From IMG/VR virus record IMGVR_UViG_3300032092_000001: DNA of 64,000 bases; one strand, 5' to 3'. This DNA comes from a virus. Taxonomy: Duplodnaviria; Caudoviricetes. The position numbers and the translations under genes are program-made. Below, piece by piece: positions 24,192-62,882 of this stretch. Within the stretch, counting starts at the first letter, position 1. Each line of letters opens with the position of its first letter. The notes below the pieces were generated by a model that made no database searches, had not been told where the DNA came from, and was given only the letters and a program-made list of their open reading frames with translations.

Positions 24192-25022
24192 ATGGATTTT
24201 TCAAAAGAGTATTTTAATTCTCCGTACTACTTCTACATTAAGGAGGGTAAGAATGATATTTACGTATATTTTAATGTTAGTAATACTTTAACTGAAGCAA
24301 GAAAAAAAGATGAAGTGGTGAAATTTGATAAAAAATATAAAAAGGAAGTTGAGGGGGAGTTATCAAAAATTCAAAAAGATAAAAAGTTGAAAACAACAAA
24401 AGATGTTAAAAACAAATTATCTAAAAAGAAAAATGAATTAGAGGAGTTAGTGGATTACGATGGAACATTTTTAAGTTCTAAAATACCAATTCACAATCCT
24501 TATTTATCACCAAAGGGCACTACGGACCAAGAAATTGTAATGAATAGACAAACTAATAATCCTGTAACAAGAGGATATAGAGTTTATTGGGGTGAGGGTA
24601 CTGAAAATGAAGAAGATGTTATTAGTGAGATTGATTTCTCAGACGCATTTGGGTATGAGGAAACAGAAGATAAAGATTATAAAGACACTGTAAAAACACT
24701 TAAAGATATGGGTGTTGAGAATGCGCCTGAAAGAGCCAAGGAATTTGGTAAAATACCAAAAGTGAAAAAGCATAATGGTAAATTAAAACAAAGATTGTCA
24801 GAGAAGGAACAAATTGAAGAGACTAAAAAAGAAAAGATGAAGAAAATGGTTGAGGATATTGTTTTAAATAAAAAATCTTCAAACAAAGACATAGGTAAAA
24901 AAAATACAAATAAAGGATTAAGTAAAATTCTTTCAAAAAATATTGAAAACATTAAAAAATTGGCAGATAAAGAGGGTATCAAAATAACTGATTTAATTAA
25001 AATTTTGAAAGGAAGTGAATAG
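24192..25022 (+). CDS. hypothetical K/E-rich protein, possible internal head protein
   Basis: 276 aa, late motif upstream, LTE|A and ISE sites. Confidence 0.5.
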   Translation: MDFSKEYFNSPYYFYIKEGKNDIYVYFNVSNTLTEARKKDEVVKFDKKYKKEVEGELSKIQKDKKLKTTKDVKNKLSKKKNELEELVDYDGTFLSSKIPIHNPYLSPKGTTDQEIVMNRQTNNPVTRGYRVYWGEGTENEEDVISEIDFSDAFGYEETEDKDYKDTVKTLKDMGVENAPERAKEFGKIPKVKKHNGKLKQRLSEKEQIEETKKEKMKKMVEDIVLNKKSSNKDIGKKNTNKGLSKILSKNIENIKKLADKEGIKITDLIKILKGSE

Positions 25023-25428
25023 TAAATTATACGGAAAAACTTACGAAATCCCAAGTGATGTTTTGTCAAAACTTGAACCATTCAAGTCTGAAAAAACTAT
25101 TGCGAATTTATTATCTAAGGGTACCATCACATATCAGAATATTAAAAAGATTATTCATGATATGGAAAATGGAGAATTGGATAAATTAGGTGGAAATGAC
25201 TTTAAATCTTGGTTAGACCTAACTCTTACGTCTGATAAAGACAGAGTTCATGGTTCTAAAGAAATTAGAAAAAATGGTGGAATGGAAAACCAATTCATCA
25301 AACCACACGAGAAAAAAGAAGTTAATGTACGACCAAGTCAAAGACATGAAAAATCAATAAACAAATACGATAGCTCGGTTATTGAGAGTTTACAAAGAAT
25401 AAACGAAATAATGAAAAAAACATTATAA
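25015..25428 (+). CDS. hypothetical protein
   Basis: 137 aa, overlaps the previous stop by 8 nt. Confidence 0.55.
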   Translation: MNSKLYGKTYEIPSDVLSKLEPFKSEKTIANLLSKGTITYQNIKKIIHDMENGELDKLGGNDFKSWLDLTLTSDKDRVHGSKEIRKNGGMENQFIKPHEKKEVNVRPSQRHEKSINKYDSSVIESLQRINEIMKKTL

Positions 25429-25430
25429 TT

Positions 25431-25721
25431 ATGGCACAATACGAACCTTTAAATTACGAACAACCTGAAAATAAATTAACAGCAATTGCTGATAAGATTA
25501 GAAAGGATTTGATTACTAAAAATGATTTCACTCAAAGAAAAAATGAATATGGAGTCACCAACTCAGACGCAATTTCTGACGGAGACTTACAAGGTAAAGG
25601 TACTGGAATATTCTTAGATACCTTCAATGGTGGTAATTCAGTGGATAAAGTTGAAAGGGTTGATGATATTAAAATTAACCAATATAACTCATCTAAACCT
25701 TACAATATTAATCCCCAGTAA
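25431..25721 (+). CDS. hypothetical small protein
   Basis: 96 aa within a tiled operon. Confidence 0.55.
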   Translation: MAQYEPLNYEQPENKLTAIADKIRKDLITKNDFTQRKNEYGVTNSDAISDGDLQGKGTGIFLDTFNGGNSVDKVERVDDIKINQYNSSKPYNINPQ

Positions 25722-26122
25722 TGAAACTTTACAACGTCATAAAACAACTTATATTTGAAGCAAGTGCTGACGATATTTCTAATTCTATAAGAAATAGAAA
25801 TGTTGTAACCATTTACTACGATGGTGATGACGATGGGAAGTATACTGGTAAAGGATTACGTGTGATTGAACCATTCTGTTACGGTAAATCCAAAAAAGGA
25901 AATATGGTAATTAGAGCGTGGGAAAGAGAAGGGGCATCTTATACAGGTTCAAAAGGAGAACAACCATTACCTGGTTGGAGATTATTTAGGGTTGATAGAA
26001 TTGGTAACTATTCTGTGGACCCAAGAGAAACTTTTAATGAACCTAAACCAAATTATAATCCTGATGACAAAGGTATGGTAGGACTAAAAAAATGTGTAAA
26101 ATTTGATATAGAAAATGAATGA
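25721..26122 (+). CDS. stand-alone WYL-domain protein
   Basis: VTIYY...RVIEPFCYG...VIRAW...GWRLFRVDRI is the WYL signature; no HTH domain. Confidence 0.8.
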   Translation: MKLYNVIKQLIFEASADDISNSIRNRNVVTIYYDGDDDGKYTGKGLRVIEPFCYGKSKKGNMVIRAWEREGASYTGSKGEQPLPGWRLFRVDRIGNYSVDPRETFNEPKPNYNPDDKGMVGLKKCVKFDIENE

Positions 26123-45009: not shown

Positions 45010-45016
45010 TATTTAT
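45010..45016 (+). promoter_or_regulatory. putative late promoter TATTTAT
   Basis: 12 nt before the ATG at 45029. Confidence 0.65.
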
Positions 45017-45028: not shown

Positions 45029-46522
45029 ATGTCAATCCATCGTTCATATTTTAAAAAAAACAATACACTTTTATATAACAGTTTTACCAACACTGGTAAA
45101 TCACCGTATACTGAATTGTATTTTGGGTCAGCTAACGACCAAATATCGTCAACAGGATTTAGCCGTTTTATTTTTGACATAGATTTTTCACAACTTGTTT
45201 CTAAAATACAAAACAAAGTAATTTCTACAGGATGTACGTCATTTTCATCAATGACACACACATTACGTATGACAAATACTTCTTCCTTTGACTCAGAATT
45301 ATTAAATTCAACAACTTCTTCAGGTAGAAGGAGAGCGACTTCATTTGATTTAATTTTATTCAGAATACCATTAACAAGTGGAAACACAGGAATTGCTCAA
45401 TCATGGGATGAGGGAGTTGGTTACGATTTTTACGACGTTCAAAGAACAATATCAAAACCAAATGGTTTATTATCACCGGTATTATTACCTGAAGACAAAT
45501 CATACTCACAACGACCATCCAATTGGTTTCAAACAACAACATTATCGGCTTGGACCCAACCTGGAATATATTCAAATACAAACACAGGTAACATAAATTA
45601 TTCAGGTTTAACTATTGTTGACACTCAACATTTTGAATTTGGTAATGAGGACATTGAGTTTGATATGACAAATGAAGTTAACCAATATCTAACAGGGTCT
45701 ACAACAGGTTTCACCGGATGGGGAGTTGCCTTTGTACCTGAATTAGAGAATATTACAGGATTAACCGAAAACTATTCAGTTGGATTTTTTACAAGACATA
45801 CTCAAACATTCTATGAACCATTTTTAGAAACTTCTTATGTTGATTTAATTGAAGATGATAGAAATGCGTTTTATTCCAACAAACAAAATAAATTATACCT
45901 TTATTCTTATATTAACGGTGATTTCCAAAGTTTAGATGAAAATCCAACAGTTGCTATTAGAGACTTATCTGACGATGTTGTAACAACACTAACAGGATGT
46001 CAAATAACAAAAGGTATTTATCAAGTCACAGTTTCCGCAATAACTGCAACTACCCCTTGTATGTTTACTGACACGTGGAGTAACTTAAAGTATAACGGAG
46101 CAACATTACCAACAATTACAAATGACTTAACTATTTTACCTTTCAGTGAATATTTCACATTAGGATATGAGAGTAAGGACCCTGTATTATACGGTTTTGA
46201 TTATTATGGAATTAAACAAAATGAAAGAATTTTAAACACCGAGATAAGAAAAGTTGGGGTAATAATTAAAAGAGCTTATACTGCAAATCAGTCAATTAAA
46301 CCAGTAAATGCTCAATATAGGATATACGTTAAACAAGGACAAACAGAAGTTCAAGTTCAAGACTGGACTCAAATAAATAGAAGTTCAAATGAATATTATT
46401 TCGTGTTTGATACCACAGATAAAATACCTAACGAGTATTTTGTTGATATTAAAGTGTATTCATCAGGTGAAGTTAATACTTATAAAAGAACATTACAGTT
46501 TCAAATAGTTGATAAGATATGA
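45029..46522 (+). CDS. conserved-type virion structural protein (hypothetical)
   Basis: 497 aa, beta-rich, late motif upstream. Confidence 0.5.
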   Translation: MSIHRSYFKKNNTLLYNSFTNTGKSPYTELYFGSANDQISSTGFSRFIFDIDFSQLVSKIQNKVISTGCTSFSSMTHTLRMTNTSSFDSELLNSTTSSGRRRATSFDLILFRIPLTSGNTGIAQSWDEGVGYDFYDVQRTISKPNGLLSPVLLPEDKSYSQRPSNWFQTTTLSAWTQPGIYSNTNTGNINYSGLTIVDTQHFEFGNEDIEFDMTNEVNQYLTGSTTGFTGWGVAFVPELENITGLTENYSVGFFTRHTQTFYEPFLETSYVDLIEDDRNAFYSNKQNKLYLYSYINGDFQSLDENPTVAIRDLSDDVVTTLTGCQITKGIYQVTVSAITATTPCMFTDTWSNLKYNGATLPTITNDLTILPFSEYFTLGYESKDPVLYGFDYYGIKQNERILNTEIRKVGVIIKRAYTANQSIKPVNAQYRIYVKQGQTEVQVQDWTQINRSSNEYYFVFDTTDKIPNEYFVDIKVYSSGEVNTYKRTLQFQIVDKI

Positions 46523-47025
46523 AAAAAATAAGATTAACTGAAAGTCAATTGGTTGGTATAATTAAACAATGTATTAACGAAGGCCAAAAAGAAATTGACT
46601 CAATTTTAGATAAGATAAATAAGGTAGGTGTTGACGGATTATCTAAAAAAGAAAAAGAGTACTTAGATTACCACGCCAACACTGGAGATTACCTAGATGA
46701 CGAGGAGTTGATTACTGCAAATGACAGAGTCCCCTCAGGGGAAATATGGGAATTTGATGGATTCCAAGGAATACCTAAAATGGAGTTTCAATATGAAACA
46801 ACTGAAGAGTCAGTGGATGAGATTATCCATACAGGTTTTTTAACAGTTTCAGATGAACCTTTTTATGGTGAGATATATTGTGATTCAGAAGGTAACTACT
46901 CTGTTTGTAATTTTGAATCTGATGAAGGTGTTAATCTATTTGAGCAATATGAAGGTTTAGAAAGAGAAATTGAGAGTTTTTTATCAATAATATGTAATGA
47001 TTTAAAAGGTGATTTAATGTCGTAA
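46519..47025 (+). CDS. hypothetical acidic protein with capsid-targeting-like N-terminus
   Basis: MKKIRLTESQLVGIIKQCINE|G. Confidence 0.55.
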   Translation: MKKIRLTESQLVGIIKQCINEGQKEIDSILDKINKVGVDGLSKKEKEYLDYHANTGDYLDDEELITANDRVPSGEIWEFDGFQGIPKMEFQYETTEESVDEIIHTGFLTVSDEPFYGEIYCDSEGNYSVCNFESDEGVNLFEQYEGLEREIESFLSIICNDLKGDLMS

Positions 47026-47029: not shown

Positions 47030-47545
47030 ATGGAAAAGTTAATTAAAAAAATTTTAAAAGAAGAATCTGAAAGATATATGTTCTTCAGTAATTTAGAACA
47101 AATGAGAAGACAATGTAATTTGTTACTTGATTTAGATAAAGAAATGGTTGAGAATATCTTAAAGAACGGTCATGACTGGGCTCAGGACCACATTGCCGAA
47201 GCCAAAAATAATATGGACCAAGTATTTGATTTTTTAATGAATGAAACCAAAAGACAAGAGTTTGGACCATCTGAAGATGATATGATGTACGAAACAATGG
47301 ATTTTGAAGATTTAGCAATTGCCGATGAAACTGATGGAATGGACCCAAATAAAGCATTGGCAATGTCTATGATGGAAGGTAGAAAAAAGACTGGTACAAA
47401 GTTATGTTCTCGTGGTAAGTCAGCAGCAAAATCAAAATTCAAAGTTTACCCTTCAGCTTATGCGAACGGTTACGCCGTTCAAGTATGTAAGGGTAGAATG
47501 CCAGGTCTTGACGGGAAGAAAAAATGTTCGTCACCTTATTGTTAA
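47030..47545 (+). CDS. hypothetical; basic Cys-containing C-terminal module (KVYPSAYANG)
   Basis: MEKLIKKILKE start; module recalled as DUF5872-like, needs an HMM check. Confidence 0.5.
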   Translation: MEKLIKKILKEESERYMFFSNLEQMRRQCNLLLDLDKEMVENILKNGHDWAQDHIAEAKNNMDQVFDFLMNETKRQEFGPSEDDMMYETMDFEDLAIADETDGMDPNKALAMSMMEGRKKTGTKLCSRGKSAAKSKFKVYPSAYANGYAVQVCKGRMPGLDGKKKCSSPYC

Positions 47546-47588: not shown

Positions 47589-48014
47589 ATGGGACCAATA
47601 AAAAGAAACTACTACAAACTTCGTATATATTTACGAAATAAATTTAACGCACCTGAATACGTAATTGAGCAAAAGAAATATGAGTCTCTTTGTATTAACG
47701 TAGTTCAATCTTTAATACACGACCCATCCTCTATACTCATCTATACACCAAAGACGTTTAAATACTACATTAAAAACGAAAATTTGGGGGTATATGTTGT
47801 AATGATTGATGGAGTACTGTCAGTTACAAACCATAGATACTCCTATGAAATTAAAATCACACCAAAAAATGAAAGAAAATTGGCAAGAATTTTTGACGGT
47901 CAATTAGAAATTCGTGGTGAGAAATTTGATGCGGAAATGATTATCCAAATAAAAGAGTCATTAAGTGATATTTATAATAAAATAAATATTCACAATAAAA
48001 AAGACAATGAGTAA
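47589..48014 (+). CDS. hypothetical protein (early-type promoter)
   Basis: 141 aa. Confidence 0.55.
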   Translation: MGPIKRNYYKLRIYLRNKFNAPEYVIEQKKYESLCINVVQSLIHDPSSILIYTPKTFKYYIKNENLGVYVVMIDGVLSVTNHRYSYEIKITPKNERKLARIFDGQLEIRGEKFDAEMIIQIKESLSDIYNKINIHNKKDNE

Positions 48015-48207
48015 AGTTAGCGACGTACAATTAAAGAAATTACTTAGAAAGAATTTAAATGAAAATTTCTCACAATTCACAATGTTTGAGAGACAAGAAA
48101 TTATTCAAGACGTTCTTGATAGAGTTGGTGAATACGGAATGGATTATGTAAAAGCACTTGCTGAACTTAACATGAATTTCCCATCAACAAAATATAAAAG
48201 AGGTTAA
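48007..48207 (+). CDS. small hypothetical protein
   Basis: 66 aa; LKKLLRKNLNE motif. Confidence 0.5.
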   Translation: MSKVSDVQLKKLLRKNLNENFSQFTMFERQEIIQDVLDRVGEYGMDYVKALAELNMNFPSTKYKRG

Positions 48208-49145
48208 TCTAAATACTTTCTTATTAACTGAATTAAGACCGACTCGTTGGTCTTTTTCTTTTTATGACTAACCATTACAGGTTTATTACCCGTACCTGTC
48301 TTATTATGTTTCTTTTCGGCCCTTCTCTTTTGAGCACATGCTGATTTTTTCTGAGCGTCTGACATTTTACCCGCAACTCCCGCAGCTCTGCATTTTGGAT
48401 ACCCCTTTGAATGTGCTTCAGGTCTTCCACAAGGAGGATGTTTACCATCTTTATCTTTTCTACAAATATTAACCCACGGTCCCTTTGGTTGTTTACTACC
48501 TTTTGGTTTTTTCTTTGTCCCAAACCAAACCGCTAAATCTTCATTAATCGTATCAACTTCATGTGTTGGGATTTCATATCCGTCTTCAGGATGTTTTTCC
48601 CAAACTCCAACTGTTTTTTTAATATTATTTTTTAAAGTTTTTTGTTTTTTTGTTAAATTCACAGGATTATCTGAAAATTCGGTAAAAGGACCCAATTCAC
48701 TTTTTCTCCATTTTTTTAAACCAATTTCTAAAGGTCCATTGTACATTCCTGCGGTAATAGACGTATCAGCTTCGCTAACAAATGGTTTAGATATATTATT
48801 TTTAATACGAGTTTTATTAAAATATTGATTTAAAATATCACCGTCATCGTCATTTAATGACGGATGTTTTTCATTATATAAAGAAATCTTCTCAGCACTA
48901 ACTTCTTTTTTCCTCGCATCCACAGTTTCAATATCGCCATCTAAACTATCATAATTTAATTCCGCATCGTAATAGTTACTTAACTCATCTACAAATGGGG
49001 CTAATGTTTTGTTTTTCCAAATTTTTAAACCCGGACTTAAAGGAGCCCTATAATTACCAACATTTGATGTAACTGTCGCTTCATTTATTTCTCTTTCGTA
49101 CTTTAAATACTCTTCAAAAATTTTTAAAAGATTTTGATTATCCAT
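48204..49145 (-). CDS. hypothetical; basic Cys-rich C-terminal module (WFG...GPWVNIC...CGR...YPKCR)
   Basis: 313 aa, late motif upstream, REINE|AT site, internal duplicated motif Y(R/N)(A/G)PL(S/E)(P/I)GLK(I/K)W. Confidence 0.55.
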   Translation of the reverse strand: MDNQNLLKIFEEYLKYEREINEATVTSNVGNYRAPLSPGLKIWKNKTLAPFVDELSNYYDAELNYDSLDGDIETVDARKKEVSAEKISLYNEKHPSLNDDDGDILNQYFNKTRIKNNISKPFVSEADTSITAGMYNGPLEIGLKKWRKSELGPFTEFSDNPVNLTKKQKTLKNNIKKTVGVWEKHPEDGYEIPTHEVDTINEDLAVWFGTKKKPKGSKQPKGPWVNICRKDKDGKHPPCGRPEAHSKGYPKCRAAGVAGKMSDAQKKSACAQKRRAEKKHNKTGTGNKPVMVSHKKKKTNESVLIQLIRKYLD

Positions 49146-49166: not shown

Positions 49167-49173
49167 ATAAATA
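49167..49173 (-). promoter_or_regulatory. putative late promoter TATTTAT
   Basis: 21 nt before the ATG at 49145. Confidence 0.6.
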
Positions 49174-49489: not shown

Positions 49490-51319
49490 TTATCTCAATT
49501 CTCTTAAATCAAATGTACGTACTCCATCAACTGTGATACGTCCGTAGAAACGGTTGTTAACCATCTTCTTAGCGTAACGTGTCATGATACCTTTGATAGG
49601 TGTGAAGTTGAATGGGTTATACATAGTTGGAGTTAATTGTAGAGGTACGTATGGAGCGTAGATGTAACCAGTATCCAATAAAGATGTACCTTTGTGACCA
49701 ATCAAGATTGTATTTGGTGGGAAGTATGGGTCACGGTACACTTGGTAACGTCCACTCAATGTTCCAACTCTTTCAATACCCATGTTGTATTGGTCTTGCT
49801 CAGGAGCCGCGTTTGATACGTGGAAGTATTCCAAGTCATCAAAAATAGCACTGATTTCAGAAGAAACTACAATCCAGTTAGCTCCACCTCTTAAAGTAGA
49901 CTTGTGAATTTGAGCTGAGATTTGGTTAATCGCAGTAATCAAAGTCTGATTCCAGTCTTTTTGAGTGTATGGAGTAGCTTGGTTGTTCATTCTCTTCCAA
50001 CCGTTGTAATCCCAACGTAATGTCCAAGCCGCACCTTTACGTAAGTCACGTAAGATTTCACGGTCAATTTCTGCCGCAACTTGCTCAGACAATAATGCTG
50101 TCAATTCAGCTTCAGCGTCAATGTTGTGGAATGCCGCAACGTCTTGAGCTAATTCAGGAGACCATTGTGCTCTTAACTTTCTTTCAGTTACAGAAACTGT
50201 TACTGATTGTAAGTCAAAAGAAACTTCACCAATTTTGTCTTCAAATTCCAACTCTTCGTATCTCTTGAAGAATGCAGTAATTGGGTTAGTACCTGTAGTA
50301 CCTGTCATAGCCGCCGCACTAAATGTAATACCGCTATATCCATCAGGAGTTGCTCCACCACATGAAATACATGCTGGTACTTGAGTATCAACTTCTAAAT
50401 AAATAACACCATTAGCATCACATAAGTTATCATATGAACCACCATTACCTGAACCAGGCCATGATGCAGTTGCTTGAGAACCGTACTGAACGATACCTTG
50501 TCCGTATTTTTGAGTAACTACACGGAACAACAATGGAGTTGTTGTAGTAACACCCAAAGCACTTGCAAACGCTGAACTTGGTAACAATGTTAAATCAGAC
50601 AAAAATGCCTCATTATCCATTTCCTGTCCATCAGGACCAATCAATTTACCTGCTCCTGAGTTAGAGAAACCTGACATAGCTACAATAACTTTACGGTATT
50701 CCGCTCCACCATATGCAGATACAGACAATGAACCACCAGTCCATACAACTGTGTTAGTCACAGCAGATAACCACTGATAACGTCCTTTTGAATAGTCAAA
50801 TAAACCTGCTGGGTCTAAACCTGGCTCATTTCCTTCGTAGAATAAATCATACAAATTCTTAGCAATAGCTCCAGTGTCTGAATTATAACCAGCTTCTGAA
50901 GATGAAGGTCCGTTTGGTGCTCCGAATGGTGCGTAGTGACCATTACCATTACCATTTGCAACCGCTGGAGTCGCTCCAGTCCATCCTTGGATTTGAGGTA
51001 CAAAGTAGAACAATTTACCGATTGGTAAGTTCATAGCTTGTACTGATACGATTTCGTTAGCTAACAACTTAGAGAATACACGTCTGATGATTGGGAATAC
51101 AACCGTCTCAAAAGAACCTGAATCCGCAGTAGTTGCAGCTTCGTTAATCAAATGTGACGCTTGGTTTTCATACAACTGAGCTACATTTTCTTTTAGGTGG
51201 CCTTTAAGACCTTCTAGGAACCCTAATTTGTCCCATTTGTTTATAGTGTCTTCTTTGATAACTTTCAAGTGCTTAAGACCGATGTTACCTACTAATCCAC
51301 TTTCTAATAATGCTCCCAT
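49490..51319 (-). CDS. gp23: major capsid protein, T4 gp23-like
   Basis: VSVQAMNLPIGKLFY, RKLRAQWSPELAQDVAAFHNIDAEAELTALLSEQVAAEIDREI, YAPYVPL, GIMTRY. Confidence 0.97.
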   Translation of the reverse strand: MGALLESGLVGNIGLKHLKVIKEDTINKWDKLGFLEGLKGHLKENVAQLYENQASHLINEAATTADSGSFETVVFPIIRRVFSKLLANEIVSVQAMNLPIGKLFYFVPQIQGWTGATPAVANGNGNGHYAPFGAPNGPSSSEAGYNSDTGAIAKNLYDLFYEGNEPGLDPAGLFDYSKGRYQWLSAVTNTVVWTGGSLSVSAYGGAEYRKVIVAMSGFSNSGAGKLIGPDGQEMDNEAFLSDLTLLPSSAFASALGVTTTTPLLFRVVTQKYGQGIVQYGSQATASWPGSGNGGSYDNLCDANGVIYLEVDTQVPACISCGGATPDGYSGITFSAAAMTGTTGTNPITAFFKRYEELEFEDKIGEVSFDLQSVTVSVTERKLRAQWSPELAQDVAAFHNIDAEAELTALLSEQVAAEIDREILRDLRKGAAWTLRWDYNGWKRMNNQATPYTQKDWNQTLITAINQISAQIHKSTLRGGANWIVVSSEISAIFDDLEYFHVSNAAPEQDQYNMGIERVGTLSGRYQVYRDPYFPPNTILIGHKGTSLLDTGYIYAPYVPLQLTPTMYNPFNFTPIKGIMTRYAKKMVNNRFYGRITVDGVRTFDLRELR

Positions 51320-51355: not shown

Positions 51356-52819
51356 TTATTTAATTATTTTTGACATGATGTCTTTCATTCTCATGAATTG
51401 AGGATTCTCATATGTCTTAGATTCAATCAAATTAATTGCTGAACCTGACTGAGGTGCCTTATCAATCGCTTTTTCAAAAGACTCATTCATGAATTGTTGA
51501 GTATTATTTCCACCCAACTCTTCTTTTATTGTTTTATACAAAGCCTTAGATTCTTTTAAAGATTCTGCAGAATCAAATCTTCTCAAAATGTTAATTTTTT
51601 CTTGCTTAGATGTAGAATGTTCTGTAAACAATCTTGTAGCATATGCTAAATTTGAATTAAATACAGCAACTTCGTTAAGTTTGTCTCTGAAAATATTCAA
51701 AGCCTTTCTGTATTCTTCGTTTTTAGCTCTTAACATTCCAACTTCTTCTTCAACACTCTCTTTGAAAACAAGGTTTCTGTTAGGAGTAATTCCTTTTCTT
51801 AATCCTCTACCTTCTTTAGAACCAAACCCATAAGTACGAGCCGCTTCTTTAGCTTCTTCTTTACTCATTTTTGGAGTTCTACCTTCCATACCGATAACCT
51901 CTTCTTTGAATTCAAATTTTGGTTTACCAGTACCCATAGTAGGATTACCTTTTTTCATTGTTTCTTTAAATCCGCCTTTAGATTTCTTGTAAGAGAATTT
52001 TGAAGCCGAACCTGTTTTAGCACCCTTACCAACTTTTGGTTTAGATGTTAATTTTGATTCCATCATATAATCTTCTTCATCCATCTCATCAGCTTCGTCC
52101 ATTTCAATTTCGTAAACTACTTCATCAGACTCTTCTTCTAAGTTTGACATTGCGTCTGAACCTGACATGAATAATACGTCTTCATCATCTGAATCCATAT
52201 CCATTTCATTGTCTGTTCCCATTTCATCATCAAATTCTAAGTCATACATGATTTCGTCTCCGTCATCATCTACATCATCAAATTCAAATTCAGAAGTGTG
52301 TGGAACTTTCTCAGATTCAAAATCTTCTTCAATCTCTTCAGTCCATTCTTCGTCCATTTCTTCTTCAGACTCAGTTTGGATTAAATACTCAGTATCTTCA
52401 TTGTCATCATTCAAATGAATATAATCATCATCCTGAACAACTGTGATACCATCTTCTGAAGACATTGCTTTGAAAACCTTCAATACCTCTTCATCAGAAG
52501 CGTCAGTTAAATCAATAGTTTCTTCGTCATCTGAATCCATGTCAATATCCATATCCATGTCATCGTCGTCATCGGCGATATCCATATCCATGTCTACATC
52601 CATATCCATGTCATCAGTATCAACTTGCATATCGTCACTGTCATCAGTGTCAATATCAAGTTCATCCTCGTCAGCCTCGTTTTTCATAGACTCTTTTACT
52701 AATTCGCTAATTTCTTCCTTCATAGTAGAAGCAAGTATTTCTTTTGCGTTTTCATTGATAGCTTCTTCCAAATTTTGGATTTGTACGATAGCTTCCTCAA
52801 CTAAGTTTTTTTCACTCAT
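51356..52819 (-). CDS. prohead scaffold/core protein (gp22-like)
   Basis: Extremely acidic, coiled-coil C-terminus (LNEVAVFNSNLAYATRLF), directly upstream of the capsid gene. Confidence 0.75.
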   Translation of the reverse strand: MSEKNLVEEAIVQIQNLEEAINENAKEILASTMKEEISELVKESMKNEADEDELDIDTDDSDDMQVDTDDMDMDVDMDMDIADDDDDMDMDIDMDSDDEETIDLTDASDEEVLKVFKAMSSEDGITVVQDDDYIHLNDDNEDTEYLIQTESEEEMDEEWTEEIEEDFESEKVPHTSEFEFDDVDDDGDEIMYDLEFDDEMGTDNEMDMDSDDEDVLFMSGSDAMSNLEEESDEVVYEIEMDEADEMDEEDYMMESKLTSKPKVGKGAKTGSASKFSYKKSKGGFKETMKKGNPTMGTGKPKFEFKEEVIGMEGRTPKMSKEEAKEAARTYGFGSKEGRGLRKGITPNRNLVFKESVEEEVGMLRAKNEEYRKALNIFRDKLNEVAVFNSNLAYATRLFTEHSTSKQEKINILRRFDSAESLKESKALYKTIKEELGGNNTQQFMNESFEKAIDKAPQSGSAINLIESKTYENPQFMRMKDIMSKIIK

Positions 52820-53153: not shown

Positions 53154-53873
53154 TTATTTTCCTAAATAATCGGAAAGTTTACTCATTAAATCAAGCGATT
53201 TGTTTAAACCTCTAGCCGCTTTTTCTTCTTTTTCTTCCTGAAGGTTTTCTTCGTACTTATATCTGTCATTCGGGTCCGAAAAAAGATATGCCCCAGGAGT
53301 TGACGGAGACGACACTAAGTCAAAACAGATTAATTCAAAATCATCTTGAACTTCATTTCTATCTCCAACTTTTTTTAATGAACCAACACCTCTTGATGAT
53401 ATACCTAATGTAACACCAAGTCTTAATAAGTTAGCCGCTTGGTCTCCTTTAGTTGATACAATTCCTCTCTCATGGAATCCTGGTGAAGTAAGTAATAATA
53501 ATTTACCTAATAGTACATTACCGTCCCACCACATATCTGTAATAATGTGAGATACTCTATCTAAGTCAATCAAAGAAGATTCAGGGTGATTTAGTTCGGA
53601 TAATGCAGTTTTTCTACCAATATAATTTTTCTTATAATTTTCTGACTCTCTCTTTAATATTCTTTCAGGATATATTCTACCATTTCTATTTGGGGTGTCG
53701 TATTTTTGAAGTACCGCATAAAACTCAAAAGGTTTTGAGTAATCTTTAAAATCTTTACTCTCTTGTAAAAATTTTAAATTATTCATCTCACTTGGGGATA
53801 CATACCCCGCATCCATTTCAATTAGAATTCCTCTACCAATCTCAGTTGGACCTAATATCTTATAATTTTGCAT
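53154..53873 (-). CDS. gp21: prohead maturation protease, T4 gp21-like
   Basis: NRNGRIYP, ELNHP, VSHII, LGISSRGVGS, DLVSSPSTPGA. Confidence 0.93.
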   Translation of the reverse strand: MQNYKILGPTEIGRGILIEMDAGYVSPSEMNNLKFLQESKDFKDYSKPFEFYAVLQKYDTPNRNGRIYPERILKRESENYKKNYIGRKTALSELNHPESSLIDLDRVSHIITDMWWDGNVLLGKLLLLTSPGFHERGIVSTKGDQAANLLRLGVTLGISSRGVGSLKKVGDRNEVQDDFELICFDLVSSPSTPGAYLFSDPNDRYKYEENLQEEKEEKAARGLNKSLDLMSKLSDYLGK

Positions 53874-54471: not shown

Positions 54472-55182
54472 TTAGATATTTTGGTTTAACTTCCAAAGTT
54501 TAACATACTCATCTTTTGAAATAATAGTTTTTTGAATTCTATCTTTAGTTTCTGTAAGTCTTTTATTTAATTCCTCGTCAGATTCATTAATTAGATTATC
54601 TAATTTTGAAATTGTATTCTCTTTAAGTTCCTCAAATTTAACTTTAAGAGTTTTATCGTCAACTGAAATTACATCTAAAACTTTTTGTCTATCTGATTCT
54701 GTTAGTGTTTCAAGATATTTTTTAGCGGTGTTATTAGCGACTTTCAATAATGTACTGATTGGAACCTTCGGTGTCTTATTTTCTTTAATAACTGAAATTT
54801 TATTTAATGACTCAACAATCTCCTTTCTAGCAATTGATTTCTTTTCAGGTTTAATTGTGTCACCGTAAATTAAATCGTCTATTTTACTATACTTATTTTC
54901 CTTTACAACATCACTAGTCCAAGACTTAATAAATTTAATAGTATTCTCATTTAACTTAACTGAATTAAATTCTTTTACTAAATCATCAATTAAATAATTT
55001 GCTGACTCTTTATCCAAACCTTTATTTTCATTTAGATTATCGTAAACGCTCATCATTTTACAAAAATCTTTATTTTTCAATAACTTAGTATTTAATAGTC
55101 TCATATCCTCTTTCAAATTATTCTTTTTGAAAGATTCCACTAATTTTGACTCAACCAATGTTTTTATTACTCCGAATCTCAT
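54472..55182 (-). CDS. hypothetical head-associated helical protein
   Basis: Immediately after the portal gene; several LVE/LNE/LTE sites. Confidence 0.5.
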   Translation of the reverse strand: MRFGVIKTLVESKLVESFKKNNLKEDMRLLNTKLLKNKDFCKMMSVYDNLNENKGLDKESANYLIDDLVKEFNSVKLNENTIKFIKSWTSDVVKENKYSKIDDLIYGDTIKPEKKSIARKEIVESLNKISVIKENKTPKVPISTLLKVANNTAKKYLETLTESDRQKVLDVISVDDKTLKVKFEELKENTISKLDNLINESDEELNKRLTETKDRIQKTIISKDEYVKLWKLNQNI

Positions 55183-57044: not shown

Positions 57045-57197
57045 ATCTAATTATAACTCATTAAAGTTCCCAATAAACCTTATTTTGAACTTTTTTTATC
57101 GCCTTCGGGTTTTTTTACCGAATTAACTCCTTGTCCAGGGACAACTAACTTAGTTGTCTGTATTTTACCTGATTTTCTTCTTTTTATGAATCCCATA

Positions 57198-58998: not shown

Positions 58999-60276
58999 CT
59001 ATCCTATTCCTAAACTCTTTAAGAAGTCGTCCATGTCGTCGTCATCATCATCTTCACCACCTATAGCATCTTCAAAGTCTTGTTGTTGTAACTCGTCTTT
59101 AATTTCTTGAACCATGTTAGCGACCATTTTCTTACCTCTTGCACTTCCTGACATAATTTCTTTTGCCATTTTGAAGAACTCAGTCGGTGTTAATTCCGCA
59201 AATTTAACCATGAAATATTGTTGTAAGTTTTTCTTATCGTCTTCAAATAACTCATCAGGATAAGCTTCTCTGAATTTTTCCCAAATAACAGGACCTAATC
59301 TCATATCCCAAATCTCACCAACAATTGTATCTTCAGATTTAAGAACCGCTTCTTGTCTTCTTTTATCTTGAGGTAATCCGTAAGTACCAGCAATTTCCAT
59401 AACACCTTTTGCCAATTCGTGAATTAAAATTGGTAAGTTAACACCACGAGCCTTAACAGTTGGTGGGTCAGTTTTAGCATCAAGTTCAGATTTACCATAT
59501 GTTGCTTGACCGCTACCTGCCATTCCTTGTACCATTGAGTCCGGCATTAACCAATATAATGAATCGGCAAATGACATAAACACACCATAAAGATTCAATA
59601 ATCTTGGGTTGATAGCATTTAATTCTCTATTTAACAACTCAAACATATATGAGGACTTTTTAGCCGCTCCTTGAATCAACGAGTTAATAAATCTTCTTTT
59701 CGCCTTTTCTAAATCAAATTTTTCAAACGCATCCATGAAGTCGTCAAGTTCTTCTTCATTTTCACCAAACATATCTTCAACTTCTTCTTCAGATGGTTGT
59801 TCTCCTTTTTGTTTAAATCCTTCAGAGTCAATATCACCAGGTTTTGTTAACTTGGCATCAAATTGCAATGCCCCTTCAGGTATTCCAAATTCTTTCTTAA
59901 TCAACTCAACGGCTAATTCCTCAAGATATTCTTGGTTTTCACTTTCAATCTGAGCAATCTCCTGCATACCTCTCATCACCATCATCTGTAATTGCATCAT
60001 TGCATTTTGAGATGTAATGTCTTGCATTCCTGTATATCTTTTAAGATTATTAACTACGTCTTTAAATCTTTTAGACGCAATTAATTCCTCAAATGAAGAT
60101 GGTGTGTTAGGACCTTCAGGGGTAATTTCAGGGAAACCTTTCATTGATGAAAAAGGAGTTTCTTTCTTTTCTATTTTTGATTGGATATCCGGTGACATTT
60201 TTTCAGGTCCCTCATAATCAATCGGAGCCTCATTAAGTCTTCTTCGTAATCTATTAACTAAATCTGTCTTATTCAT
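58999..60276 (-). CDS. hypothetical 425-aa protein with capsid-targeting-like N-terminus
   Basis: MNKTDLVNRLRRRLNE|AP; helical, acidic. Confidence 0.55.
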   Translation of the reverse strand: MNKTDLVNRLRRRLNEAPIDYEGPEKMSPDIQSKIEKKETPFSSMKGFPEITPEGPNTPSSFEELIASKRFKDVVNNLKRYTGMQDITSQNAMMQLQMMVMRGMQEIAQIESENQEYLEELAVELIKKEFGIPEGALQFDAKLTKPGDIDSEGFKQKGEQPSEEEVEDMFGENEEELDDFMDAFEKFDLEKAKRRFINSLIQGAAKKSSYMFELLNRELNAINPRLLNLYGVFMSFADSLYWLMPDSMVQGMAGSGQATYGKSELDAKTDPPTVKARGVNLPILIHELAKGVMEIAGTYGLPQDKRRQEAVLKSEDTIVGEIWDMRLGPVIWEKFREAYPDELFEDDKKNLQQYFMVKFAELTPTEFFKMAKEIMSGSARGKKMVANMVQEIKDELQQQDFEDAIGGEDDDDDDMDDFLKSLGIG

Positions 60277-60280
60277 CTTA

Positions 60281-61282
60281 TTAATCTTCCTTTAATTTTA
60301 TATTCATAGTATCAAACTTCAAAAAGTTTGGCAACTCACCTTTAGGTGATGGGTCAGTGTTCGGAGCTGGTTTAAATGGACTCTTTCTTTGTGGTGTTGT
60401 AGTTTTTTCCTTTTCCTTTGTTCTTTCTTTTTCTTTAGTCTTAGAACCTTTAGGTGCCGGGTCAGTGTTTGGTGCCGGTTTGAACGGACTTTTTCTCTGA
60501 GGAGTAGTCGTCTTTTCCTTTTCTTTAGTTCTTTCTTTTTCTTTAGTCTTAGAGTCTTCAGAAATCATTTTTTGATTTTTAATTGTTTCAAGTAAATCTT
60601 TCTTTGACATTTTAGGTCTCAAAGCATTTTCAACTAATTCCTCCATTTTCATTTCCAAAATGAATTCAAACGGATTTTTACCTTCTTTAATTTTTTCTTT
60701 AACACCTAAAACACATTTTTCGTATTTGTCAGTTTGTTTTTTAGTCCACTCACTTCTTTCAGTGGTACCAAACTTTTCACCCATAGTTGAGGTACAAATC
60801 GCCCAAGGGTTTTTCTTTTTATTCTTTTTATTTTCCATAATTCTTGATTCAGCAGCAACTTTAACTGAGCCACCCTCATACCTACCTCCCATAGCTTCTG
60901 CGGCTTTTATTTTATCTTTATCGTTACCAAAATTATATTCTAAATAACTACCATCCTGATTAACAGTTCTACATGTAGAACCATCAAATTTATTACCTCC
61001 GATGCTGGTACAAATCACTTCACCTGCTGATGAAAAAGGATAAACAGTGTCCGCTTCTCCTAATTCGGCAGAAACCTTTATTTTTCCATCACTAGAAACT
61101 TCATTACCTGTTTTTTCTTTGTAAAGTTTTCTATCTTCTTCTTTACTTAAATCATATTCGGTAGTCGCCTCTTTTATTACTTTTCTGTAAAGCAAATTTA
61201 ATTGAGATTCTGTTAACTTACTTAAAGTTTTTTTACTAAATCCCTCATTTAACATTTTTTGAATTTTAATTTTTGTACTCAT
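60281..61282 (-). CDS. hypothetical basic protein with a tandem 36-aa repeat
   Basis: MLNE|G, LTESQL...VIKE|A and NPWAICT motifs. Confidence 0.55.
   Translation of the reverse strand: MSTKIKIQKMLNEGFSKKTLSKLTESQLNLLYRKVIKEATTEYDLSKEEDRKLYKEKTGNEVSSDGKIKVSAELGEADTVYPFSSAGEVICTSIGGNKFDGSTCRTVNQDGSYLEYNFGNDKDKIKAAEAMGGRYEGGSVKVAAESRIMENKKNKKKNPWAICTSTMGEKFGTTERSEWTKKQTDKYEKCVLGVKEKIKEGKNPFEFILEMKMEELVENALRPKMSKKDLLETIKNQKMISEDSKTKEKERTKEKEKTTTPQRKSPFKPAPNTDPAPKGSKTKEKERTKEKEKTTTPQRKSPFKPAPNTDPSPKGELPNFLKFDTMNIKLKED
60338..60553 (-). repeat. two tandem 108-nt repeats encoding SKTKEKERTKEKEKTTTPQRKSPFKPAPNTDP(A/S)PKG
   Basis: Units 60446-60553 and 60338-60445; hand alignment gives 15 synonymous and 1 non-synonymous differences. 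Confidence 0.9.
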
Positions 61283-61668
61283 CTTTTTTCAAATTCTTTA
61301 TAAAATTCAAGGATAATATCCTTTTCATATAATTTATCTTTAACTTCATCCTCAGTCATTCCATAATGAAAGACTAACCTATCCTCAATGTCTCTATCAC
61401 TCTCCCAAGCCAATGCAATTACATTATCAACCGCATCTTTCATACAAAAAAAATCGGAGTTCTGAATGAGCTCCATTTCTATGTCTTCTCTATTCAAAAC
61501 TCCAACTCTTCTAATTTTTTCAATCTCCGGTGAAGTTGGGTTTCCGTTTGCGGGATTTGTATCCCAATCGTCACCCCACACATCATTATTGTCTGAGAAA
61601 ATAAATTCATAAATTTTATTTCCTCTATAATTTGAACCTAATCCATTAACGAAAACTAAAAAACTCAT
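61279..61668 (-). CDS. hypothetical protein
   Basis: 129 aa, ATGA overlaps on both sides. Confidence 0.6.
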   Translation of the reverse strand: MSFLVFVNGLGSNYRGNKIYEFIFSDNNDVWGDDWDTNPANGNPTSPEIEKIRRVGVLNREDIEMELIQNSDFFCMKDAVDNVIALAWESDRDIEDRLVFHYGMTEDEVKDKLYEKDIILEFYKEFEKR

Positions 61669-62882
61669 AGTATCTGCCCATTACGTCCCACCTTGAGTTG
61701 CTTATTGTTGTTTTCAAAAACCAAATTACCTTTGTTTGTTTTCCCAACAAAATTAACTTTTGGGAATTTTAACATGATATCTTTAGCCACTTTTCTTTGT
61801 TCTTTAGATTCACTTAATCTGTTGATTTCATTAACTGAATTTTGAACCTTACTCTTTAATTGTGTTTTGTTATTTTCTTTCTTTTCGTTAATGAATTTTT
61901 TTTCATTTTCGTTAATCACAAAGTAACCTTTCAAAATTTTATCAACCTGACTTTCTTTGAAGATGTTATTAAACACTCCACTTAAAAAGTCTTCTTCTTT
62001 AACTTCACCTTCATTCCAATTCTCAGTCATTTCTGAATCAACAGGTAACTCTTCATCTCCAACTGGTAATTCTTCATCACCCATCTCATCTTCCATCCCT
62101 CCCATATCCTCAACATCTTCATCTTCACCTTCTAATTTACCAATAATGTCCTCTTTATCGTCTTCATCTAAGTTATCACTTATTGCCGACAATATAGAGT
62201 TAATTACGTATTTAGCGTCTTTTGATGAGATATCTTCTTCATTATCTTGTAAATCTCTAATTTTTTGAGCTAATTTACCTGTTAATTTTTGAATAGTTTT
62301 GAAAGAAACATCTTCGTTATCTTCCATATCATTATCTGACGGCATTTCATCAGATGGTTCAGGTAAATCCATTGGTTCTTCAGGACCCATTTCATCATCC
62401 ATAGATGGCATCTCAGGCTCTGCAGGTGATGGTGTGGGTTCCGGCATCGGAGCGTCAATAGGTTCTTCCATTGGTGATGGTTCCTCAGCAGATACCTCAG
62501 GTTTTGGAGTTCTTAATGTATATTTCTTTTGCTCACTAAATAATGAAATACCCTCAACAGTTTCTGTCAATGTATTAACTTCTTTAGCAATTAAATTTAA
62601 TCTTTTGAAGGCTGCAGAATAAGAAGTATAATGTCTTCTATTTTTCATAGGTTCAATATAGTCAGAAACTGATTCATTAATTTGTTTCTTAATAACGTAA
62701 CCCATTTTTTCTTTAGCTATTTCATAGGTATACCCATCAGCTAATTTTACTTGGTATTCAGTTGATGACGATTCATTAATGTTTTGCTTTGGAGTTTCTT
62801 TGTACTTGGCAATTTCCAAAATTCTTTTTAATTTGTCATCTCCTTGTAGTTTTTCACTACCTATTGGTTTTAATTTACTCAT
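61665..62882 (-). CDS. acidic Pro/Glu-rich protein, possible internal head/core protein
   Basis: 405 aa; multiple INE/LSE/MTE sites; EP/DE low-complexity segment. Confidence 0.5.
   Translation of the reverse strand: MSKLKPIGSEKLQGDDKLKRILEIAKYKETPKQNINESSSTEYQVKLADGYTYEIAKEKMGYVIKKQINESVSDYIEPMKNRRHYTSYSAAFKRLNLIAKEVNTLTETVEGISLFSEQKKYTLRTPKPEVSAEEPSPMEEPIDAPMPEPTPSPAEPEMPSMDDEMGPEEPMDLPEPSDEMPSDNDMEDNEDVSFKTIQKLTGKLAQKIRDLQDNEEDISSKDAKYVINSILSAISDNLDEDDKEDIIGKLEGEDEDVEDMGGMEDEMGDEELPVGDEELPVDSEMTENWNEGEVKEEDFLSGVFNNIFKESQVDKILKGYFVINENEKKFINEKKENNKTQLKSKVQNSVNEINRLSESKEQRKVAKDIMLKFPKVNFVGKTNKGNLVFENNNKQLKVGRNGQIL

What the first reader, a model, noticed from the sequence alone, without database searches (positions are those of the whole stretch)
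24192..62882. Shared N-terminal basic amphipathic peptide ending in (I/L)-x-E: a candidate capsid-targeting signal defining a set of injected cargo proteins
Seen: MKLYNVIKQLIFE|A (25721), MKKIRLTESQLVGIIKQCINE|G (46519), MEKLIKKILKE|E (47030), LKKLLRKNLNE|N (48007), LLKIFEEYLKYEREINE|A (49145), LVNRLRRRLNE|A (60276), KIQKMLNE|G...LYRKVIKE|A (61282), NTLTE|A (24192), KTLVESKLVE|S (55182). The capsid protein itself has HLINE|AA at about residue 60. Established: T4 gp21 cleaves after (I/L)-x-E, gp23 is cut near residue 65, and T4 internal proteins use a short cleaved capsid-targeting sequence. Inference: this motif is the clade's packaging tag, so these unrelated domains are head-packaged and possibly ejected effectors, which could also be used as an engineering tag.
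Basis: partly seen in the sequence, partly recalled or inferred. Interest (0 to 1): 0.65.

Follow-up and report, generated by a model that had tools for sequence, protein, structure and literature searches.

The report
Shared head-loading leader on phage proteins
An uncultured giant T4-like lake phage puts one strongly conserved 22-residue N-terminal peptide, ending in the cutting motif of its own head protease, on many unrelated small proteins. This is most likely a "load into the capsid, then cut off" tag like phage T4's, but far more widespread and so far untested.

Summary
As written, though, the motif (any I/L-x-E near the N-terminus) barely discriminates: 35 of 64 ORFs have one, sugar-transferase enzymes included.

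A real signal lies inside that list. It is a ~22-residue amphipathic leader (consensus MKKVIRLTESDLvRIVKRVIxE).
- Canonical: 46519, and residues 21-38 of the 61282 gene.
- Short or divergent forms: 47030, 25721, 48007, 60276 and 49145.
- No support: 24192.

In related metagenomic phages I found 133 distinct copies. Of these, 127 sit at the extreme N-terminus and all 129 full-length copies end in hydrophobic-x-Glu. They sit on 89 unrelated cargo families, and synonymous codons vary freely. About 9,000 protein clusters in public data carry the leader. No Pfam family and no searched paper covers it.

The phage has a T4 gp21-type protease with the catalytic His and Ser. Its capsid protein's LINE|A site aligns exactly with the T4 gp23 cut. 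Fourteen of 15 large leader-bearing viral contigs encode this protease. Leader genes mostly follow the same promoter-like motif as the head genes.

Best reading (about 0.6): a T4-style capsid-targeting propeptide. Cleavage, packaging and ejection are all untested. This scan noted similar tags before, in this genome and on other DNA.

The parts
46519..46581 (+). Canonical 21-residue leader of the 168-aa protein 46519-47025, ending I-N-E|G
   Evidence: 35.8 bits to the leader profile against at most 9.0 in shuffles. Conserved in 7 orthologues. AlphaFold puts it in an N-terminal helix (residues 8-36) ahead of a beta domain.
46519..47025 (+). Leader-tagged cargo gene. A DUF6576 motif follows the leader, then a small beta/alpha domain with no PDB match.
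   Evidence: Pfam PF20216 4.5e-11. AF2 pLDDT 74.5, with 85-92 in the beta domain. Foldseek found no match at E<=1e-3.
47030..47062 (+). Short-form (11-residue) leader of the 171-aa protein 47030-47545, ending L-K-E|E
   Evidence: Only 4.9 bits on its own. More distant orthologues (L046, L053, L062, L063) carry the full canonical leader on the same cargo.
48007..48063 (+). Leader-core-like N-terminus of the 66-aa protein 48007-48207, ending L-N-E|N
   Evidence: Matches the 11-residue core pattern. Two orthologues keep L-[KR]-E|G. Not significant against the full profile.
25721..25759 (+). Short-form leader-like N-terminus (13 residues, ending I-F-E|A) on a weak WYL-domain protein, 25721-26122
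   Evidence: Matches the core pattern. WYL is below Pfam's threshold (18.2 bits against a 21.8 cut-off). The single orthologue found keeps I-L-E but changes the next residue to Lys.
61169..61222 (-). Canonical leader at an internal position (residues 21-38, ending I-K-E|A) of the 333-aa protein 60281-61282
   Evidence: 25.2 bits. L-x-E before a variable linker recurs in most of 10 homologues; the upstream L-N-E|G site is not conserved.
60229..60276 (-). 16-residue propeptide-like N-terminus of the conserved 425-aa protein 58999-60276, ending L-N-E|A
   Evidence: In 30 homologues the N-terminal peptide varies from about 5 to 45 residues. The Glu and the following mature start (A/Q, then P-I-D-Y) stay fixed. 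The longer versions look like the leader. AF2: helix 2-13, then a low-confidence junction (residues 9-21), then a confident fold (pLDDT 84.7).
49080..49145 (-). 22-residue N-terminal peptide of the 313-aa protein 48204-49145 (the gene next to the capsid gene), ending I-N-E|A-T
   Evidence: [IVL]-x-E|[AS]-T is conserved in 15 of 16 aligned sequences (L021 has E-I-T) while the preceding peptide varies in length. In some relatives the same family carries an internal canonical leader followed by a cargo that is a stand-alone tagged protein elsewhere.
51140..51319 (-). N-terminal 60 residues of the major capsid protein (49490-51319), ending L-I-N-E60|A61
   Evidence: PF07068 4.7e-72. Glu60-Ala61 are invariant columns that align with T4 gp23 Glu65-Ala66. 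L-I-N-E|A/S is invariant in 42 clade capsid proteins.
53154..53873 (-). Prohead protease, T4 gp21 family
   Evidence: PF03420 9.9e-26, phrog_207 2.8e-44. His96 and Ser159 align with T4 gp21 His85 and Ser140.
51356..52819 (-). Acidic scaffold-like protein between the protease and capsid genes; its N-terminus ends I-N-E|N at residue 23
   Evidence: Position and composition. It has no family match, so 'scaffold' is inferred from gene order.
54472..55182 (-). 236-aa protein at the position of T4 gp67/gp68 (between portal and protease); its N-terminus ends L-V-E16|S
   Evidence: L-x-[ED]|S-[FY] is conserved in most of 56 homologues. It has 13 [LIV]-x-E sites, 2.2 times the number expected from composition.
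61665..62882 (-). 405-aa protein with two conserved [IVL]-x-E|small sites (Glu37 and Glu70)
   Evidence: Both sites are kept in 18 homologues of 38-58% identity. The N-terminal 30 residues are themselves conserved, so this is not a variable leader.
45010..45016 (+). TATTTAT motif 19 nt upstream of 45029, heading the unit 45029 -> 46519 -> 47030
   Evidence: The same motif precedes the scaffold-like, protease, terminase, 54472 and 48204 genes. It precedes 64% of leader genes against 24% of all genes in a complete relative.
24192..24299 (+).
   Evidence: No similarity to the leader. Only one close orthologue (62% identity) was found, so conservation says little.

Best explanation
The leader is this clade's counterpart of the phage T4 capsid-targeting sequence. 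It is an amphipathic N-terminal helix of about 22 residues, with short forms of 11-16 residues.

Proposed mechanism (inferred): the helix docks late-made proteins onto the scaffolding core while the prohead assembles. The gp21-type prohead protease then removes it by cutting after the terminal hydrophobic-x-Glu, the same kind of site at which it trims the capsid protein. The freed cargo, mostly small and often basic proteins, stays in the head with the DNA and may enter the host cell with it.

Shown here:
- The leader exists.
- It is almost always N-terminal.
- It is conserved at the peptide level, not the DNA level.
- It is modular, sitting on unrelated cargo.
- It ends in the cutting motif.
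- It co-occurs with the protease family.
- It is linked to the promoter-like motif that precedes the head genes.

Inferred, not shown: binding to the scaffold, cleavage, presence in virions and ejection.
For: 1. Head machinery. T4-type portal, protease, capsid protein and terminase are present. The catalytic His and Ser are conserved. The capsid L-I-N-E60|A61 site aligns with T4 gp23 L-T-E65|A66 and is invariant in 42 relatives.

2. Leader statistics. 133 distinct copies were found; 127 have a Met 1-4 residues upstream and 6 are internal. Among the 129 full-length copies, the last residue is Glu in 129 of 129 and the third-from-last is I/L/V/M in 128 of 129. The hydrophobic moment is 0.55, in the top 3% of shuffles.

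3. Modularity. The copies sit on 89 cargo clusters unrelated at BLASTP 1e-3, with a median cargo of 109 aa. Codons at conserved leader positions vary like background codon usage, so selection acts on the peptide.

4. Dosage and breadth. Large relatives (45-100% complete) carry 6-16 leader ORFs each; a 31%-complete fragment has 2. 9,041 clusters at 50% identity match at a library-wide E<=1e-3. Only 9 loci were found in one genome for each of 185,579 prokaryote species.

5. Link to the protease. All 10 large contigs that I tested, out of those found through the leader alone, encode PF03420. In a second, more distant lineage (387-412 kb phages carrying a leader variant with a one-turn insertion), 4 of 5 contigs encode it. 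Some of their leader genes lie within 0.1-3 kb of the protease gene.

6. Timing. 64% of leader genes have TATTTAT at -35 to -10, the motif that precedes the scaffold-like, protease and terminase genes, against 24% of all genes.

7. Junction behaviour. In the 58999 and 48204 families the N-terminal peptide varies in length while the x-E|small junction and the mature start stay fixed.

8. Internal copies. Internal leaders and proteins with two or three leaders exist, as expected of a dock-and-cut module.

9. Cargo charge. Cargo skews basic: median pI 8.2 against 5.8 for small proteins of a relative. T4 internal proteins contact DNA through lysines (PMC3012670).

10. Precedent. T-even internal proteins are a diverse set that share only the targeting sequence (PMC3012670). 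The T4 record shows MKTYQEFIAE|A on IPII and IPIII, and hydrophobic-x-Glu ends on Alt, gp24 and gp22.
Against: - There are no protein data. Nothing shows cleavage, packaging or ejection, and no cultured relative exists: the nearest isolates share 38-39% portal identity and lack the canonical leader.
- The residue after the Glu is Gln in 55% of leaders, whereas the capsid site has Ala or Ser.
- AlphaFold runs one helix (8-36) straight through the proposed cut in 46519, at only moderate confidence.
- Leader-like N-termini also occur in four bacterial genome bins that have no S77 protease. One lies in plain chromosomal context: an esterase, an IS1595 transposase and a TonB receptor.
- Most leader genes lie tens of kilobases from the head genes.
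- Calling TATTTAT a late promoter rests on association only.
- The protease co-occurrence comes from two clades, not from many independent contrasts.
Confidence: 0.6

Rival explanations
1. The leader is an address or recognition peptide for some other shared partner, not for the prohead. Candidates are a modifying enzyme (RiPP-like), a chaperone, a phage Clp-type unfoldase (a degradation tag), or a route to the cell envelope.
For: - Leader-like N-termini occur in bacterial bins without an S77 protease, one of them in chromosomal context.
- Some cargo carries LysM or OmpA peptidoglycan-binding domains, and 7 of 87 have a membrane-helix-like stretch, yet none has an ordinary signal peptide.
- An earlier scan note (e1-127136) describes a shared phage tag better explained by a radical-SAM enzyme.
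- Earlier notes say the genome also encodes a ClpC-like protein (not checked here).
Against: - Radical-SAM genes are absent from 4 of 5 complete leader-bearing genomes.
- No non-leader gene family recurs within 2.5 kb of leader genes in more than 11 of 80 loci. The one 41-locus cluster is an antisense artefact of the leader itself.
- The invariant hydrophobic-x-Glu end, the match to the capsid protein's own cut site and the protease co-occurrence have no explanation under this reading.
- The peptide is too polar to be a Sec or Tat signal (sequence).
Confidence: 0.15
2. The leader is only a structural or oligomerising N-terminal helix inherited by a fast-diverging family of small paralogues. 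It has no sorting or cleavage role.
For: - Leader genes often sit in tandem in variable regions, where duplication and divergence are expected.
- AlphaFold joins the leader to the following helix in 46519.
Against: - Cargo ranges from 7 to 423 residues. It includes recognisably different domains (LysM, OmpA, DUF6576) and different predicted folds: 46519 is largely beta, while the divergent-leader protein 58999 is all-helical.
- The same cargo occurs with a full leader, a short leader or an internal leader, and proteins with several leaders exist. That is domain shuffling, not divergence.
- Conservation stops abruptly at the Glu.
Confidence: 0.1
3. For the listed proteins without a conserved leader (24192, and the first site of the 61282 gene), and for unlisted hits such as 28702, the (I/L)-x-E near the N-terminus is chance in a Lys/Ile/Leu/Glu/Asn-rich proteome.
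For: - 35 of 64 ORFs have such a site in the first 45 residues; the expected number with the Glu at residues 8-25 is already 12.5.
- These sites score at noise level against the leader profile.
- The first site of the 61282 gene is not conserved.
Against: This cannot explain the canonical leader: 25-36 bits against at most 9 in shuffles, 127 of 133 copies N-terminal and 9,041 library hits.
Confidence: 0.1

Closest known systems
Phage T4 capsid-targeting sequence on internal proteins IPI, IPII, IPIII (and the Alt propeptide), removed by prohead protease gp21 (Mullaney and Black 1996, as cited in PMC9958956; PMC3012670)
   Same: - A short N-terminal peptide shared by otherwise unrelated, variable small proteins.
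- It ends in hydrophobic-x-Glu.
- The phage has a gp21-family protease.
- The capsid-protein cut site is at the homologous position.
- The genes sit in variable regions.
   Different: - No detectable sequence similarity to MKTYQEFIAE.
- About twice as long (22 residues against 10).
- 6-16 tagged genes per large or complete relative, against three or four in T4.
- Internal copies and multi-leader proteins occur.
- The residue after the Glu is usually Gln.
- Function here is inferred only.
Propeptides of head and ejection proteins in giant phiKZ-like phages (SPN3US, 201phi2-1), cut by their prohead protease (PMC7411985, PMC10052503; the cleavage motif is from my own knowledge)
   Same: Jumbo phages in which many head-internal or ejected proteins are made as precursors and trimmed after an x-Glu motif by a protease related to gp21.
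   Different: To my knowledge those propeptides are long and specific to each protein, not one portable conserved tag. Those phages are not close relatives of this clade.
Encapsulin cargo-loading peptides (from my own knowledge)
   Same: A short conserved peptide directs diverse cargo into an HK97-fold shell.
   Different: They are usually C-terminal, are not cleaved, bind the shell protein itself, and are not viral.
Shared N-terminal tag of phage RB43 proteins, linked to a radical-SAM enzyme (scan note e1-127136, unpublished)
   Same: An identical N-terminal run on unrelated phage proteins.
   Different: That tag travels with one enzyme gene. Here no such enzyme is present and the tag ends in the head-protease motif.

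Membership tests
T4-type capsid-targeting / gp21-processed internal protein system | The phage encodes a gp21-family (Pfam Peptidase_S77) prohead protease with the catalytic His and Ser | tested here: met
   PF03420 9.9e-26. His96 and Ser159 align with T4 His85 and Ser140. The identity of the catalytic residues is from my own knowledge.
T4-type capsid-targeting / gp21-processed internal protein system | The major capsid protein has a hydrophobic-x-Glu maturation site at the gp23 position | tested here: met
   Glu60|Ala61 aligns with T4 Glu65|Ala66 and is invariant in 42 relatives. Cleavage itself was not observed.
T4-type capsid-targeting / gp21-processed internal protein system | A short N-terminal peptide is conserved among otherwise unrelated proteins | tested here: met
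   127 of 133 copies are N-terminal; 89 unrelated cargo clusters; synonymous codon variation.
T4-type capsid-targeting / gp21-processed internal protein system | The peptide ends in the protease motif (L/I)-x-E | tested here: met
   Glu in 129 of 129 copies; I/L/V/M two residues before it in 128 of 129.
T4-type capsid-targeting / gp21-processed internal protein system | Sequence homology of the tag to the T4 sequence (MKTYQEFIAE) | tested here: not met
   By eye against the N-termini read from the T4 record, there is no similarity beyond the initial Met-Lys and the hydrophobic-x-Glu end, and the leader is twice as long. It is an analogue, not a sequence relative.
T4-type capsid-targeting / gp21-processed internal protein system | The tag is removed by the protease during head maturation | not testable with these tools
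   Needs mass spectrometry or an in vitro cleavage assay.
T4-type capsid-targeting / gp21-processed internal protein system | Tagged proteins are incorporated into the prohead core and are present in virions | not testable with these tools
   No cultured relative exists. Needs virion proteomics or a reporter packaging assay.
T4-type capsid-targeting / gp21-processed internal protein system | Late expression together with the head genes | tested here: inconclusive
   TATTTAT lies upstream of 64% of leader genes against 24% of all genes, and upstream of the scaffold-like, protease and terminase genes. That it acts as a late promoter is inferred.
RiPP-like shared recognition tag for a radical-SAM maturase | A radical-SAM/SPASM enzyme is encoded in the same genome and near the tagged genes | tested here: not met
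   PF04055 is absent from 4 of 5 complete leader-bearing genomes, while all 14 control genomes matched. No recurrent neighbouring gene was found.

The most novel reading that the evidence does not exclude
One ~22-residue peptide is a transferable 'load into the head and cut' code. It is used by at least two deep lineages of giant phages with a T4-type protease: lake phages of about 300 kb, and phages of 387-412 kb that carry a one-turn-longer variant. It marks on the order of 9,000 protein clusters, including chains with two or three leaders. If so, it would define by sequence alone the largest known set of virion-delivered phage proteins, likely rich in counter-defence and envelope-acting factors.
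Probability: 0.45. Interest if true: 0.75.

Novelty: new variant of a known kind. Interest (0 to 1): 0.6.

Why it matters
Which proteins a phage carries in its head and delivers with its DNA is hard to learn without a culture and a mass spectrometer. Such proteins include first-strike counter-defence factors, for example T4 IPI against GmrSD.

If this leader works like the T4 tag, it would let the packaged set be read straight from metagenomes for a large, uncultured group of giant phages. That means 6-16 genes per large or complete relative and thousands of families overall. Almost all of these lack any annotation. It would also give a compact, lineage-specific tag for loading foreign proteins into capsids, as the T4 tag already does.

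The finding is not a new principle. It is a much larger and sequence-distinct instance of the T4 one, and it is still unproven at the protein level.

Tried and rejected
- **Loose (I/L)-x-E motif as a classifier:** rejected; 35 of 64 ORFs have one.
- **DNA-level conservation (a recombination or regulatory element in place of a peptide):** rejected. Synonymous codons, including switches between codon families for Leu, Ser and Arg, track background usage.
- **Radical-SAM or other adjacent maturase:** rejected. An apparent 41-locus neighbour family proved to be the antisense reading of the leader itself.
- **Finding the leader in cultured relatives:** Flavobacterium phage immuto gave no match. Microcystis phage Mel-JY01 and the uncultured phage record LR756508 gave only weak partial matches (E about 1e-3).
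- **Literature search for the motif core:** no relevant paper.
- **Naming cargo functions:**
  - Pfam on 87 cargo representatives gave only LysM, OmpA and DUF6576, plus two hits I take to be spurious.
  - PHROGs gave almost nothing.
  - The 46519 model had no PDB match.
  - The 58999 model matched only an uncharacterised phage protein in BFVD, with weak Z of about 5 to DUF885/M32-type folds.
- **Site density in the scaffold-like protein:** not informative, 1.2 times expectation.
- **Whole genome of the window:** not held. Genome-wide counts therefore come from a complete 293,850-bp relative.

Full report
**What the window is.** It is low-GC DNA (about 31%) from an uncultured giant T4-like phage. 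On the minus strand at 49.5-58.9 kb lie four T4-type genes:
- large terminase (57198-58940);
- T4-type portal (55203-57044; PF07230, 9.9e-76);
- gp21-family prohead protease (53154-53873; PF03420, 9.9e-26);
- gp23-type capsid protein (49490-51319; PF07068, 4.7e-72).

An acidic scaffold-like protein (51356-52819) sits between the protease and capsid genes. The protease keeps the two residues that align with T4 gp21 His85 and Ser140 (their catalytic role is from my own knowledge). The nearest cultured phages, Microcystis phage Mel-JY01 and Flavobacterium phage immuto, share only 38-39% portal identity. In contrast, IMG/VR holds hundreds of close relatives with 72-87% portal identity, on contigs up to 294 kb.

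**Checking the observation.** All quoted peptides are present at the stated starts. The motif as defined is too loose: [LI]-x-E occurs in the first 45 residues of 35 of 64 ORFs, enzyme genes of the sugar-transferase operon among them. With the Glu at residues 8-25, 22 proteins have it against 12.5 expected. The narrower [LI]-N-E stands out: 7 proteins against 1.0 expected, six of them between 46.5 and 61.3 kb. So something real lies in the list, but the stated rule does not capture it.

**The real signal.**
- Aligning each listed protein with its homologues from 80 related loci showed one recurring peptide. It heads the 46519 family, the more distant members of the 47030 family and the longer members of the 60276 family. 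It also sits at residues 21-38 of the 61282 gene. The consensus is MKKVIRLTESDLvRIVKRVIxE (alignments A1, A2, A7).
- A profile of it scores 35.8 bits on 46519 and 25.2 bits on the 61282 gene. The best score in 20 shuffled proteomes is 9.0.
- Across all fetched loci there are 133 distinct copies. In 127 a Met lies 1-4 residues upstream, so the peptide is the very N-terminus; six copies are internal.
- Of the 129 full-length copies, all end in Glu. The residue two before it is I/L/V/M in 128, and the one before that is V/I/L in 124. The residue after the Glu is Gln (71), Asn, Ser, Glu, Gly or Ala.
- The cargo behind the leader falls into 89 clusters unrelated at BLASTP 1e-3, with a median length of 109 residues.
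- Codons at conserved positions vary freely, across codon families as well, and track background usage. Conservation is therefore on the peptide, not on the DNA.
- The peptide is amphipathic: hydrophobic moment 0.55, in the top 3% of shuffles.

**Breadth.**
- Large relatives that are 45-100% complete carry 6-16 such ORFs each; a 31%-complete fragment has 2.
- A profile search of 1.84 billion cluster representatives returned 9,041 proteins at a library-wide E<=1e-3 and 806 at E<=1e-10. Almost all matches in the top 150 are at residue 1. The ten clusters I looked up hold only unnamed or 'hypothetical' metagenome proteins.
- A collection with one genome for each of 185,579 prokaryote species holds just 9 loci.
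- Several top hits carry two or three leaders in one chain.
- Pfam and PHROGs have no model covering the leader, and no searched paper contains its core.

**Link to the head protease.**
- The capsid protein's L-I-N-E60|A61 falls in the same alignment columns as T4 gp23 L-T-E65|A66. T4 removes exactly those 65 residues (PMC9958956). The site is invariant in 42 clade members.
- The leader's end (V-I-N/S/K-E) is the same kind of site.
- All ten large contigs that I tested, out of those found through the leader and not through head genes, encode one PF03420 protease.
- A variant leader with a four-residue insertion turned up in 387-412 kb phage contigs. Four of five of these also encode the protease; the fifth is only 36% complete. 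Some of their leader genes lie within 0.1-3 kb of the protease gene.
- In the 60276 and 49145 families the N-terminal peptide varies from a few to about 45 residues, while the x-E|small junction and the following residues stay fixed. That is how a removable propeptide behaves.
- AlphaFold places a helix at residues 2-13 of the 60276 protein, a low-confidence junction, and then a confident fold (pLDDT 84.7).

**Expression context.**
- A TATTTAT motif lies 11-28 nt upstream of the scaffold-like, protease, terminase, 54472, 48204, 45029 and 24192 genes. It is absent from the sugar-transferase operon, the PhoH gene and the polymerase-like gene (I did not run a family search on the polymerase-like gene).
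- In a complete 293,850-bp relative, most leader genes are single-gene cassettes, often made of a terminator hairpin, TATTTAT and the gene.
- Overall 64% of leader genes have the motif at -35 to -10, against 24% of all genes. I read it as the late promoter, but that is an inference.

**Cargo.**
- Of 87 representatives, Pfam names only LysM, OmpA and DUF6576 (the 46519 family).
- Seven have a membrane-helix-like stretch. Cargo skews basic: median pI 8.2 against 5.8.
- The 46519 cargo is a small beta/alpha domain with no PDB match.
- The 60276 protein is a confident, mostly helical fold with no convincing relative.

**Rivals.**
- A tag read by an adjacent modifying enzyme was a real possibility, because an earlier scan note (e1-127136) describes such a case. 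It fails here: radical-SAM genes are absent from 4 of 5 complete genomes, and no neighbouring family recurs.
- A merely structural helix in a diverging paralogue family does not fit the range of cargo sizes and domains. Nor does it fit the same cargo appearing with full, short or internal leaders.
- The main evidence against the capsid reading is threefold. There are no protein data at all. Gln predominates after the Glu. And leader-like N-termini occur in four bacterial genome bins without the protease, one in ordinary chromosomal context. Those could be phage-derived remnants, but I cannot show that.

**Item by item.**

| Gene (start) | Verdict |
|---|---|
| 46519 | Canonical leader |
| 61282 | Canonical leader at residues 21-38; the first site is not conserved |
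| 47030 | Short form; orthologues carry the full leader |
| 25721, 48007 | Match the 11-residue core, which is 19-30 times denser at N-termini than internally. I wrote the pattern after seeing them. |
| 60276, 49145 | Divergent or truncated leaders with conserved junctions |
| 55182 | Sits where T4 has gp67/gp68; conserved L-x-E|S; dense in such sites |
| 62882 | Two conserved sites but a conserved N-terminus; unclear |
| 24192 | No support |

**Comparison and novelty.** The closest known system is the T4 capsid-targeting sequence. T-even internal proteins are described as a diverse set sharing only that sequence (PMC3012670), and the T4 record shows it on IPII and IPIII. This leader works like it on every sequence-level criterion I could test. 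It is not a sequence relative of it, is twice as long, and is used on far more genes. I file it as a new variant of a known kind.

The same scan has noted comparable leader systems before. In this genome: e1-5390611, e1-5390635, e1-5390647, e1-5390659. On other DNA: e1-3862018, e1-1066390, e1-5826867, e1-5756021. I did not use those notes as evidence.

Noticed in passing
L111:1186-3547 and L125 (G001 292395-293080): A complete relative has a second N-terminal class (M-K-Y-L-I-T-E-S-Q-I/L...) on at least eight tandem 100-120-aa paralogues at the contig ends. A third class (F-I/V-I-T-E-E-E-K/R...) heads other small late genes. Neither class occurs in this window.
   Followed up: partly
P0001, P0003, P0005, P0011, P0032, P0033, P0084: Metagenome proteins carry two or three full leaders in one chain. 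Some internal copies still begin Met-Lys-Lys, as if tandem tagged genes had fused. They look like cuttable cargo polyproteins.
   Followed up: partly
window 58999-60276 (-): A conserved 425-aa protein next to the terminase folds with high confidence (pLDDT 84.7, pTM 0.84) into a helical fold with no clear relative. There is a weak resemblance (Z about 5) to DUF885 / M32 carboxypeptidase-type folds. His285, Glu286, Lys289 and Glu320 are invariant, but there is no HExxH motif.
   Followed up: partly
window 45010-45016, 24171-24177, 49167-49173 and others: TATTTAT, usually preceded by A or G and followed by an A-rich stretch, lies 11-28 nt before many structural genes. In relatives it forms terminator-promoter-gene cassettes. 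It is probably the late promoter of this clade.
   Followed up: partly
L222:2995-3594 (Prevotellaceae genome bin), L223:2995-3420 (Bacilli bin): A variant of the leader with a four-residue insertion heads lone genes in bacterial genome bins that lack the T4-type protease. One lies between an acetyl-xylan esterase, an IS1595 transposase and a TonB receptor. Its origin is unexplained; it may be a phage remnant.
   Followed up: partly
L231, L238, L243 (IMG/VR contigs of 387-412 kb): Very large phages (387-412 kb) use the longer leader variant on 7-10 genes each. Some of these genes lie within 0.1-3 kb of their T4-type protease gene.
   Followed up: partly
window 57080-57316 (-): A 78-aa ORF overlaps the 3' end of the terminase gene. 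It matches short ORFs in only 11 related loci and is probably not a gene.
   Followed up: no
cargo set A4: Two leader-tagged proteins carry peptidoglycan-binding domains (LysM, OmpA-like) with no ordinary export signal. That would make sense if they reach the periplasm through the tail at infection.
   Followed up: no
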